64,000 bases of DNA. Source: Muribaculaceae bacterium (lineage in GTDB: Bacteria; Bacteroidota; Bacteroidia; Bacteroidales; Muribaculaceae). The notes beneath the pieces were generated by a model. The model was not told where the DNA came from and made no database searches. It was given only the letters and a program-made list of their open reading frames with translations. Positions 47,241 through 48,964 of the stretch are shown in pieces. How positions within the stretch are numbered: position 1 is the stretch's first letter; each line of letters starts with the position of its first letter. Position numbers and translations under genes: made by a program. The stretch lies in assembly GCA_017624155.1 (NCBI GenBank), contig JAGANS010000072.1, positions 1,962 through 65,961 on the forward strand. The letters are read 5' to 3'.

Positions 47241-47705
47241 ATGGCACAGAAACTTAAATTCAAGGAAATAAATATCAAGAACCGGCGCGCCACATTCGAC
47301 TACGCCATCACCGACACATACACGGCCGGCATAGTGCTCACGGGCACCGAAATAAAATCGATACGCATGGGTAAAGCCTCACTCGTCGACACGTTCTGCT
47401 ACATCAACGACGGCGAGGTGTGGGTCAAGAATATGTACATTGCCGAATACTTCTACGGCACTTACAACAACCATACCGAGCGCCGTGACCGCAAACTGCT
47501 GCTCAACCGCAAGGAAATTCGCGAACTGCGCAAAGACAGCGAATCGCCGGGCTACACCATCGTACCCCTGCGCCTGTTCATATCGCAGAAAGGCTATGCC
47601 AAGCTCGTCATCGGCGTAGCTAAAGGCAAGAAGGAATACGACAAGCGACAGTCGATCAAGGAACGCGATGACAAGCGCGAACTGGCCCGCGCATTTATGA
47701 AATGA
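47241..47705 (+). CDS. smpB: SsrA-binding protein SmpB
   Basis: [25 protein letters not shown] and GKKEYDKR. Confidence 0.97.
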
Positions 47706-48964
47706 AAGACGTCTTCATAAGCTACAGCCGCAAGGATTCTGTGACCGCCGACCGTATCTGTGCAGCCCTTGACCGCGCAGGTATCTCATACTTCATTGAC
47801 CGCAGGGGCATCGGCGGCGGCATGGAATTTCCCGAGGTGCTCGCGCAGGCAATAGTCGACTGCCGTGTGTTCCTGTTCCTTGCAAGCGCCAATTCATACA
47901 AGTCGCGATTTACCAACAACGAGGTAACCTTTGCCTTCAACCGCAAGCCCAAGAACTGTCTGCTGCCATATATCATCGACGGCTCGGAAATGCCTCTTAG
48001 CCTCGACTTCACATTTGCCGGCATCAACCGCCGCAACATCAGCGAGCACCCAGTCGACACCGTGCTCATCGATGACATTCTGAATATGCTCGGCCGCAAA
48101 CGCACAAACGCCGGGGCCACGGCTACTCAGCGCGACATCACTGTAGCATACGTCAAGGACAACTATCTATATATAGTCTTCGCATACACGGGCAAACGCA
48201 TCAAGCTTAATCTTGAGAGTCTGGCCGGTCTTTCAACCCAAAATCTCATAAACCGTCTCAACGACATATCGCCCGCCGGCGACATCACTCCGTCGGACCA
48301 TTTTCCAGGCCTCGCATATTGCCGGCAACACGCAGCCGACACCCTCGTAAGCGCCGACTATGTATATCTCATCTGCCACAATACCGACGGCAAAGCCTAC
48401 GGCGAAGCTTACGCACAGAAAGACACGATTAAAAATCCACGGCTACGCATCAGCTATGCCTCATCGCTGTGTGCCTTTGCCGACACCTGCCTGATAAAAG
48501 CAGAGACACAAAAGGTACTGGTTTATGGCGACGAGGCCGTAAGACTTGAAGCAGGTGACGGCGTCGTGGAGATACAGCAAGTCTACACGACCGGAGCCCC
48601 TGCGCCTCTGAGTCTCAGCACACTATTCAAGGGCATTGCGCTGCAACACTGTATAGCCGCAGGTATCGCAGGCAACAGCATTCTGCTCGACATCATCGGA
48701 TTTGACCTCAAACTGCGGATATTCGACAACGACAAACTCACCGAAGAAATACAGCTCATTGACAAAGACGCGTGTATACCCTCGCGCAGCACATGCGATA
48801 TTGAATGCCGTGATTTTCCACAAATACGACTGTATGCCGACGATTGTATGCTGCGCGACTCTCTGGCCATACCGGGCAATGGCAAAGTCAGCTTCGCAGT
48901 CGATACGGCACGCGACATTAAAGGCGGATTCGACGGCCGCCACGGCCACATAGACCTACTGTGA
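47702..48964 (+). CDS. TIR-domain protein with a C-terminal degenerate Hsp70/DnaK-like region
   Basis: [13 protein letters not shown]...FID...[14 protein letters not shown] (Glu74). C-terminal colinear DnaK-like segments [20 protein letters not shown]...ILLDII and [16 protein letters not shown] overlap with smpB. Confidence 0.8.

What the first reader, a model, noticed from the sequence alone, without database searches (positions are those of the whole stretch)
47702..48964. TIR domain fused to a compacted, ATPase-dead DnaK/Hsp70 relic and coupled to smpB: candidate new defence system
Seen: residues 1 to about 130 form a TIR domain with the catalytic-position Glu74 (SRFTNNEV). The rest carries DnaK-like segments in DnaK order: [18 protein letters not shown] (cf. 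TPEEISA.IL..LK..AE.YL), [13 protein letters not shown] (LRIINEPTAAALAY), KVLVY (TILVY), [10 protein letters not shown] (LEIGDGVFEV), [22 protein letters not shown] (GAAIQGGVL.GDVKDVLLLDVT, the interdomain linker), [12 protein letters not shown] (LIERNTTIPTKK) and KVSFAVD (EVTFDID). The nucleotide-binding motifs GIDLGTT and DLGGGTFD, most of lobe II and the lid are missing. The gene overlaps the smpB stop (ATGA). Established: bacterial TIRs are NAD+-cleaving or signal-producing immune effectors (Thoeris, CBASS, Pycsar, SPARTA) activated by oligomerisation, and many phages recruit DnaK/DnaJ. Inference: the pseudo-DnaK acts as an integrated decoy or sensor for phage proteins that engage the host chaperone, or for unfolded or J-domain clients, and triggers TIR activity. 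I do not know of this architecture being described, and the DnaK homology was judged by eye.
Basis: partly seen in the sequence, partly recalled or inferred. Interest (0 to 1): 0.85.

Follow-up and report, generated by a model that had tools for sequence, protein, structure and literature searches.

The report
TIR enzyme fused to shrunken Hsp70
A cattle-gut bacterium carries one gene that joins a TIR domain (an enzyme type used in bacterial immunity) to a rare, half-size relic of the chaperone DnaK that has lost its ATP-handling parts but is predicted to keep the face where J-domain helper proteins dock, so it is likely a bait that would trip the TIR when a virus brings or hijacks such a helper.

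Summary
ORF 47702-48964 encodes a TIR_2 domain with Glu74, then a 278-aa module. Single-sequence searches miss the module, but it is a DnaK/Hsp70 descendant. A family profile finds DnaK/Hsp70 in 20 of 21 PDB hits (best E 3e-7). A confident model (pLDDT 89) aligns over 242 of 278 residues to ATP-state DnaK (Z 13.8). Most of lobe II, most of subdomain IB, the lid and the nucleotide residues are gone. Seven of eight published J-domain contact residues map to identical residues, on hand-anchored blocks. The module is rare (TIR-fused in 3 of 158 same-genus genomes). It evolves far faster than its TIR (38% versus 83% identity in a syntenic orthologue). It also occurs alone, behind a second TIR type, and membrane-anchored in E1/E2/JAB-FtsK operons. 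The smpB link is only positional, and there is no defence island. Best reading (about 0.38): a one-gene integrated-decoy sensor for J-domain proteins that activates a TIR NADase; gut Prevotella Lak phages encode DnaJ. Binding, NADase activity and defence are untested, and the complex predictor was unavailable. I found no description of this architecture.

The parts
47702..48964 (+). Whole gene, 420 aa: TIR domain fused to a compacted DnaK/Hsp70 relic
   Evidence: intact 420-aa frame in 12 of the 15 listed cluster members, the other 3 are shorter entries of 132-300 aa
47702..48100 (+). TIR_2 domain (residues 1-133) with Glu74 at the usual catalytic position (codon 47921-47923; position assigned from recall of TIR NADases)
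   Evidence: Pfam TIR_2 E 1.2e-17; PADLOC ThsB/SAVED-TIR models match the TIR only; Glu present in 6 of 6 TIR-fused relatives
48101..48127 (+). Short variable linker (residues 134-142)
   Evidence: length and sequence vary among relatives
48128..48487 (+). Relic of DnaK subdomain IA (residues 143-262): N-terminal strands, two helices in place of subdomain IB, strand-helix-strand-helix ending in the R167-equivalent R249; phosphate-loop Asp and E171 equivalents lost
   Evidence: model secondary structure; VIA alignment from DnaK residue 2; hhalign segment 2; position table
48488..48592 (+). First three strands of subdomain IIA (residues 263-297) with E283, D286, E290 (DnaK E206, about D211, E217); the phosphate-2 loop is deleted and the rest of lobe II is absent
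48593..48700 (+). Cross-over helix and interdomain linker (residues 298-333) with G311, Q315, L328 (DnaK G374, Q378, L391)
   Evidence: PDB profile alignment anchored at DnaK 374; hhalign
48701..48961 (+). Substrate-binding beta-sandwich relic (residues 334-420), shortened loops, no helical lid; invariant P360 (DnaK P419)
   Evidence: 84-85 residues align to SBD-beta at rmsd about 2 A, Z 9-11
47241..47705 (+). smpB, upstream neighbour whose stop overlaps the start (ATGA); likely only lends transcription, not a part of the system
   Evidence: Pfam SmpB E 5e-58; neighbour not conserved

Best explanation
This is a single gene fusing a TIR domain to a half-size DnaK relic, and it likely works as an integrated-decoy immune sensor: the relic is predicted to be stuck in the ATP-like docked shape that J-domain proteins bind, and binding would likely cluster the attached TIR domains so that they would destroy NAD+ and abort phage infection. 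Shown: the fusion, the DnaK ancestry, the deletions, the loss of nucleotide residues, the rarity and the fast evolution. Predicted: the docked shape. Inferred: that the retained surface binds a J-domain; that the trigger is a phage-encoded DnaJ-type protein (dimeric class A DnaJ could cross-link two sensors) or host DnaJ displaced or loaded during infection; that the TIR is an active NADase switched on by clustering; that the outcome is abortive infection. Because the relic cannot hydrolyse ATP it would stay receptive, and it must somehow discriminate against resting host DnaJ; how is unknown.
For: (1) The model (pLDDT 88.8, pTM 0.87) matches domain-docked Hsp70 structures best: 7KRT Z 13.8, rmsd 4.1, 242 of 278 aligned; 4B9Q 13.4; the DnaK-J-domain complex 5NRO 13.3. 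Foldseek TM-scores are about 0.45-0.54 for most docked states and 0.2-0.3 for undocked ones. (2) PMC8215388 (passages) lists eight DnaK residues that contact the J-domain: R167, E206, D211, E217, Q378, L391, P419, D477. Seven map to identical residues here (R249, E283, D286, E290, Q315, L328, P360), although overall identity is 13-15%. Six are identical in the orthologue whose module is only 38% identical. Across 17 family members, the 6 contact positions that are at least 90% conserved in DnaK keep the DnaK residue 56% of the time, against 25% for 69 other conserved positions (permutation p 0.015; polar residues only, p 0.011). (3) Nucleotide positions are kept only about 18% of the time. (4) Sensor-like evolution: TIR 83% and module 38% identical to the syntenic orthologue, 9 neighbours 83-100%. 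(5) Rare: TIR-fused in 3 of 158 genus genomes; no member among 400 other order genomes, where the profile's best hits are all DnaK-length frames at E>1e-7. (6) Modular: the TIR-fused modules form one clade (99/98) carrying two unrelated TIR types (26-29% identical). The same TIR clade is fused to Sel1, WD40, WG, Lcl_C, FGE-like, ribosomal L7/L12 and ferredoxin domains (54 proteins scanned). (7) The sister family sits in operons with E1, E2, JAB and FtsK genes. (8) No dedicated J partner: each of the 3 carrier genomes has one PF00226 match. (9) A plausible trigger exists: 6 Prevotella Lak phage records among 50 phage hits carry a J-domain, and Lak-A1 encodes a 361-aa DnaJ with HPD. A DnaJ-dependent phage sensor is known (PMC12169576, abstract).
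Against: No binding, NADase or phage data. The blocks were anchored by hand on conserved motifs, so the enrichment is partly circular, and related sequences are not independent. The E. coli numbering for R167/E206/D211/E217 was mapped from recalled motifs, and D211 is approximate. Several contact residues (L391, P419, Q378) also build the docked core, so they may be kept for folding. Among the 6 TIR-fused members Q378 is kept in 2, R167 in 4, L391 in 4 and D477 in 0; P0023 has lost R167, the hairpin motif and E217. The TM-anchored sister family lacks R167 and E206. The docked shape may reflect the predictor's bias for a compact chain. Host DnaJ is constitutive and would risk self-activation. 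Neither TIR-fused site is a defence island. No positive selection is shown: whole-gene dN/dS is 0.11 and synonymous sites of the module are saturated.
Confidence: 0.38

Rival explanations
1. Immune or stress sensor of unfolded clients: the lidless beta-sandwich binds exposed hydrophobic peptides (for example phage capsid or tail proteins made in bulk) and clusters the TIR on aggregates or multivalent clients.
For: SBD-beta fold retained at rmsd about 2 A; it is variable (30 of 84 identical in the orthologue), as a ligand surface might be; same TIR and distribution evidence as the main reading.
Against: About 19 residues of the substrate-groove loops are missing and there is no lid. The docked ATP-like state is the low-affinity state (PMC13580251 passages, describe it as open). 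It does not explain the retained acidic hairpin.
Confidence: 0.2
2. Decoy for another DnaK-targeting phage factor (an inhibitor, a modifying enzyme such as an AMPylase, or a replication or assembly protein that binds DnaK directly) rather than for a J-domain.
For: The whole IA-linker-SBD face is preserved, and AMPylated and FIC-bound BiP are among the best structural matches. The TIR clade carries other host-like domains.
Against: GrpE- and ClpB-binding subdomains (IB/IIB; recalled) are deleted, which narrows the partners; the retained residues match the J-contact list specifically.
Confidence: 0.12
3. Not anti-phage: a stress- or proteostasis-linked signalling protein, or a TIR that acts in gut host-microbe interaction, reading DnaJ availability.
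For: Solitary gene among housekeeping genes, kept at one site in two species, host-like GC (0.53); one copy faces groEL; six TIR genes in this genome.
Against: Very patchy (3 of 158 genus genomes) and fast-evolving; the sister family lies in conflict-type operons; no signal peptide or membrane segment seen in the 6 TIR-fused members (hydropathy below 1.6).
Confidence: 0.15
4. The relic has no specific ligand: it is a stable spacer or oligomerisation scaffold drifting under relaxed selection, captured by a TIR clade that shuffles C-terminal domains freely.
For: Module dN 0.65 against 0.11 for the TIR; promiscuous TIR fusions; contact residues eroded in some members.
Against: Frame intact in all full-length alleles; pN 0.43 below pS 0.77; the fold is kept at 15-40% identity across solo, Zn-ribbon, TM and TIR contexts; surface acidic residues are retained (E217 in 15 of 17).
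Confidence: 0.15

Closest known systems
DnaK/Hsp70 in the ATP-bound, J-domain-receptive state (PDB 7KRT, 4B9Q, 5NRO)
   Same: Subdomain IA, first IIA strands, cross-over helix, linker and SBD-beta in the same order and predicted docked arrangement; 7 of 8 listed J-contact residues.
   Different: 278 aa instead of about 600; most of IB, IIA and IIB and the lid deleted; nucleotide residues lost; fused to TIR; no DnaJ or GrpE gene beside it. Published DnaK derivatives keep the NBD and lose SBD parts (PMC13580251 passages); this one does the reverse.
CoCoNuT CnuD and Hsp70-McrB fusions (10.1101/2023.07.31.551357, passages)
   Same: Degenerate Hsp70 NBD/SBD unit recruited into a predicted defence system and fused to its machinery; predicted poor ATPase.
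   Different: CnuD keeps Walker-like motifs, is predicted to bind nucleotide and RNA, and works in McrBC operons; here the nucleotide site is dismantled, the effector is TIR and the gene is solitary. Sequence homology to CnuD was not tested.
Hsp70-containing conflict systems of the Aravind group (GAP1-N2 and DO-GTPase systems, PMC7159879 passages; tripartite proteins with an HSP70-like NTPase in place of STAND, mentioned in 10.64898/2026.10.19.760177)
   Same: Hsp70 domains used in predicted immunity next to or fused with effectors.
   Different: Those use Hsp70 as an NTP switch, often with GrpE and DnaJ partners or lacking the peptide-binding domain; here there is no NTPase, no repeat sensor and no partner genes.
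Single-gene TIR effector-sensor proteins (TIR-SAVED, Thoeris ThsB-like TIRs, TIR-Sel1/TPR/WD40 fusions)
   Same: N-terminal TIR_2 with the catalytic-position Glu and a variable C-terminal domain.
   Different: The C-terminal domain is a host-chaperone relic, not a nucleotide sensor or repeat; no cyclase, ThsA or Argonaute nearby.
bNACHT25 (PMC12169576, abstract and outline) and plant NLR integrated decoys (concept recalled; search listing only)
   Same: bNACHT25 senses phage through host DnaJ; plant NLR-IDs fuse a copy of a pathogen's host target to an immune receptor.
   Different: bNACHT25 is a NACHT protein with no Hsp70 part; no NB-ARC, NACHT or LRR is present here, so this works like an integrated decoy (inferred) but is not an NLR.

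Membership tests
Hsp70/DnaK chaperone | Descent and fold: NBD-linker-SBD-beta | tested here: met
Hsp70/DnaK chaperone | Complete two-lobed NBD with phosphate loops and catalytic acids | tested here: not met
   DnaK about 224-365 absent, D8/E171/D194 equivalents changed; below Pfam and NCBIfam thresholds
Hsp70/DnaK chaperone | Alpha-helical lid | tested here: not met
   alignment ends at DnaK 497, the last residue of the protein
Hsp70/DnaK chaperone | J-domain docking surface | tested here: inconclusive
   7 of 8 residues kept in this protein, uneven in relatives; binding not tested
TIR NADase effector | TIR fold with catalytic Glu | tested here: met
   Pfam TIR_2; Glu74 in 6 of 6 TIR-fused members
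TIR NADase effector | NAD+ cleavage on oligomerisation | not testable with these tools
   needs an enzyme assay
Thoeris / CBASS / Pycsar / SPARTA | Cognate partner gene (ThsA, cyclase, short Argonaute) in the locus | tested here: not met
   neighbours are smpB, pta, ackA, relA, serpin, C10 peptidase; PADLOC 0 of 6 neighbours tested
CoCoNuT CnuD | McrBC operon and retained Walker-like motifs | tested here: not met
   no McrB/C-like gene among the ORFs read at the three TIR-fused loci; nucleotide motifs lost
Private Hsp70-GrpE-DnaJ conflict operons | Dedicated J-protein and GrpE genes beside the Hsp70 | tested here: not met
   one J-domain match per carrier genome, in the own genome the grpE-dnaJ pair on another contig
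Integrated-decoy immune receptor (works-like claim) | Inactive copy of a host protein fused to an immune effector | tested here: met
Integrated-decoy immune receptor (works-like claim) | Pathogen factor binds the decoy and activates the effector | not testable with these tools
   complex predictor unavailable; needs binding and phage assays

The most novel reading that the evidence does not exclude
A bacterial integrated-decoy receptor: DnaK pared down to little more than its J-domain docking face, locked in the ATP-like shape, detects phage-encoded DnaJ proteins (such as those of gut Bacteroidales megaphages) and fires a TIR NADase. It would be one of a set of Bacteroidales TIRs baited with copies of host hubs (DnaK, ribosomal L7/L12, ferredoxin).
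Probability: 0.25. Interest if true: 0.92.

Novelty: new variant of a known kind. Interest (0 to 1): 0.72.

Why it matters
It defines an uncatalogued Hsp70-derived domain (no Pfam, NCBIfam or PADLOC model at threshold) that discards the ATPase and keeps the interdomain docking face, the reverse of published DnaK derivatives. If the decoy reading holds, it is a one-gene bacterial parallel of plant integrated decoys and gives a direct test of why phages carry DnaJ genes. It would also supply a minimal natural mimic of ATP-state Hsp70 for chaperone studies. It shows that solitary TIR genes in gut Bacteroidales, outside defence islands, hide sensor domains that standard annotation misses.

Tried and rejected
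Single-sequence routes failed. Pfam, PDB phmmer and BLAST to the own DnaK were not significant. The ESM Atlas gave no usable hit. The word-index search found only the own cluster, and with the profile 3 proteins, of which 1 was a weak DnaK. The single-sequence fold was unusable (pLDDT 35). Locus searches with single proteins found nothing in JGI metagenomes, genomes or viral contigs, so the genomic context of the 8 solo members, the Zn-ribbon member and 3 of the 6 TIR-fused members is unknown. One search repeated the draw and added nothing. The hhalign global modes misplace the N-terminal half across the large deletions and were not used. RNA: contigs of 2 metatranscriptome runs (1 study) cover parts of the gene and bridge the smpB junction. 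Coverage was thin over most of the 6 kb, contigs show no strand, and no silent control was laid, so expression is not claimed. No empty-site joint was seen in the 2 DNA runs laid. The promoter/terminator scan was at chance level and is built for sigma-70, not Bacteroidota. In one search the nucleotide labels of the first block were off by one; the mean (0.18) is the same in the corrected register. Other divergent Hsp70s in the phylum (11 loci read) keep a full NBD and do not match the family profile. Rejected: functional coupling to smpB; a defence island or recent low-GC insertion (GC 0.53); a private chaperone operon; a pseudogene. P0030 (repeat artefact) and P0024 (39 aa) were left out of all alignments.

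Full report
Observation. The ORF at 47702-48964 (+) encodes 420 aa and starts in an ATGA overlap with the smpB stop. Residues 4-99 match Pfam TIR_2 (E 1.2e-17), and nothing in Pfam explains the rest. PADLOC hits cover the TIR only. The neighbours are relA, a DUF5606 gene, an unannotated membrane protein and smpB upstream, and pta, ackA and a sigma factor downstream. The 90% cluster has 21 members; 12 of the 15 listed are full length and intact. Runs holding the DNA are gut and bovine metagenomes. The two relatives with named records are Muribaculaceae MAGs of the same genus.

Is the C-terminal part a DnaK relic? From the single sequence this cannot be shown. A full-library search found 16 proteins at E<=0.001: the own cluster, 13 distant full-length relatives (20-29% identity), a 39-aa piece and a repeat artefact. 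A profile of the 14 usable sequences gave 21 PDB hits at E<=10, 20 of them DnaK/Hsp70, best E 3.3e-7. Over 401 order genomes it matched 367. All listed hits other than the gene itself cover only profile positions about 183-270, at E>=1.8e-7, mostly in frames of about 640 aa, that is DnaK (221 matches were not listed). In the own genome (7,937 frames) DnaK is the only other hit below E 0.45, also when the gene and its orthologue are removed, and a reversed profile finds nothing. hhalign of 17 members against 33 Bacteroidota DnaK-type proteins gives two collinear segments, DnaK 140-223 and 370-485. AlphaFold2 on the 14-row alignment gives pLDDT 88.8. All 37 Foldseek PDB rows shown are Hsp70/Hsp110-family entries or Hsp70-sized chains. 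VIA aligns 242 of 278 residues to DnaK 2-497 (Z 13.8, rmsd 4.1), with ATP-state or otherwise docked structures on top. The homology is therefore established.

Anatomy. Kept: subdomain IA, the first three strands of IIA, the cross-over helix, the linker and the SBD beta-sandwich. Lost: most of IB, the rest of lobe II (DnaK about 224-365), the lid, and the nucleotide-binding acids and glycine loops. ATP binding or hydrolysis is very unlikely (inference from missing parts). PMC8215388 (passages) names the DnaK residues that touch the J-domain, and PMC13012618 (passages) repeats R167, E217, L391 and L392. Q378, L391 and P419 map to Q315, L328 and P360 through the PDB alignment anchored at DnaK 374. 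R167, E206, D211 and E217 map to R249, E283, D286 and E290 by motif (numbering recalled, D211 approximate). D477 is lost. In 110 hand-anchored positions, 5 of 6 highly conserved contact positions are identical in this protein against 18 of 69 others; family means are 0.56 and 0.25, p 0.015. E206 and D211 were left out of that test because they are only 76% conserved in the DnaK set; the family keeps them at 0.59 and 0.76. The test is partly circular, and retention is uneven: among 6 TIR-fused members Q378 2, R167 4, L391 4, E217 5, P419 6, D477 0.

Family and distribution. The core family has 15 sequences: 6 TIR-fused, 8 solo with a short N-terminal segment, 1 behind a Zn-ribbon region. TIR-fused modules form one clade (99/98), yet P0018 carries a TIR only 26-29% identical to the others, so the TIR was exchanged at least once. 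A sister family of membrane-anchored proteins (36 clusters; profile match 99.3%) lies, in the 2 loci read at length, in operons with ThiF/E1, JAB, E2-like, WXG100-like, FtsK and WG-repeat genes. A third locus was read only over 3.7 kb. In the own genus 4 of 158 genomes match: 3 TIR-fused and 1 membrane type. In a family draw of 400, 2 match, both membrane type. Of 79 loci with related TIRs, 2 carry the relic. The 54 other TIR proteins scanned end in Sel1, WD40, WG, Lcl_C, FGE-like, L7/L12 (2) or ferredoxin (1) domains, or in unannotated, often membrane-containing tails.

Context. The gene after smpB differs widely among 29 other same-genus loci and is never this gene. One species has the orthologue at the same site with an 11-base gap, and another has it convergent with groEL, downstream of two large carbohydrate-enzyme-like genes (labels from my reading) and about 7 kb from two integrase-like genes. 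So smpB is a landing site that probably supplies transcription (inference). Against the orthologue the TIR is 83% and the module 38% identical, while 9 neighbours are 83-100%; module dN is 0.65, TIR 0.11, and positive selection is not shown. GC and codon GC3 are host-like. Each carrier genome has one J-domain match.

Mechanism. The best reading is a one-gene decoy sensor: a nucleotide-free relic fixed in the J-receptive shape binds a J-domain protein, TIR domains cluster, NAD+ is consumed and infection aborts. TIR activation by clustering is established knowledge (recalled). Phage J-proteins exist in the right niche: 6 of 50 phage records hit by the host J-domain are Prevotella Lak phages, and Lak-A1 encodes a full DnaJ with HPD when read with table 15. 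PMC7824862 and PMC12619734 (passages) report DnaJ genes in jumbo phages, including predicted Bacteroidota phages. No link between those phages and this host is shown. I put this reading at 0.38; client-peptide sensing 0.20, decoy for a non-J factor 0.12, non-defence signalling 0.15, ligand-free scaffold 0.15. An immune role of some kind is about 0.65-0.7.

Comparison and novelty. Degenerate Hsp70s in predicted defence are known: CoCoNuT CnuD (passages), GAP1-N2 systems (PMC7159879 passages), eukaryotic apoptosis-type fusions (PMC8195603 passage), and tripartite proteins with an HSP70-like NTPase (ParA preprint passages; its references 29 and 31 were not seen). All are described as keeping a nucleotide-binding domain, as are the DnaK derivatives in PMC13580251 (passages). 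I found no description of a TIR fused to a lobe-II-less Hsp70 in searches. The library lacks most subscription journals, and no supplements were read (those of bioRxiv are closed); architecture tables in such supplements could list it. Earlier scan notes had no look-alike by sequence; word search returned multi-gene Hsp70 operons of a different build. The protein is not a member of the Hsp70 chaperones or of Thoeris, CBASS or CoCoNuT; it works, by inference, like an integrated decoy.

Verdict. Observation confirmed; interpretation partly supported; new variant of a known kind, with an uncatalogued domain; interest 0.72.

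Noticed in passing
L081 3957-15972 (-), L082 1014-10222 (-), L234 961-2202 (+): Membrane-anchored sister of the DnaK relic (36 clusters); in L081 and L082 it lies inside an operon with ThiF/E1, JAB, E2-like, WXG100-like, GYF-FtsK and (L081) WG-repeat genes, which looks like a ubiquitin-like plus type VII-like conflict locus of Muribaculaceae.
   Followed up: partly
L128 9992-11689, L138 9995-10927, L127 5565-6185: The same TIR clade fused to two ribosomal L7/L12 C-terminal domains, or to a 4Fe-4S ferredoxin: further candidates for TIRs baited with host-protein copies.
   Followed up: partly
L230 1207-2292 (Prevotella phage Lak-A1, MK250016.1): Full-length class A DnaJ with HPD motif in a gut megaphage, read with table 15; the record has no annotation.
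   Followed up: partly
protein P0024 (39 aa; matches window about 47702-47734 and 48878-48961): A database protein that joins the first 11 residues of this gene to its last 28: a possible in-frame deletion allele or an assembly artefact.
   Followed up: no
window 46689-47234 (+): 181-aa membrane protein with no Pfam hit that precedes smpB in 29 of 30 genus loci, a far more conserved smpB partner than the TIR gene.
   Followed up: no
window 40296-42884 (-): Adjacent serpin and C10 (streptopain-like) peptidase genes, a protease-inhibitor pair between trx and a lipoprotein gene.
   Followed up: no
window 48404, 48755, 49035: Single contigs in run X11 leave the gene or its 3' spacer into unrelated sequence: possible insertions in related strains or chance joins.
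   Followed up: no
smpB 3' end in L084-L112: The gene downstream of smpB changes often across the genus (prfC, trx-dnaE, aspS, surA-like, mltG-like, mutS2-like and others; labels from my reading), a frequent rearrangement point.
   Followed up: partly
G000 C92 and C73 (L002, L001): The genome's own dnaK is split across two contig ends.
   Followed up: no
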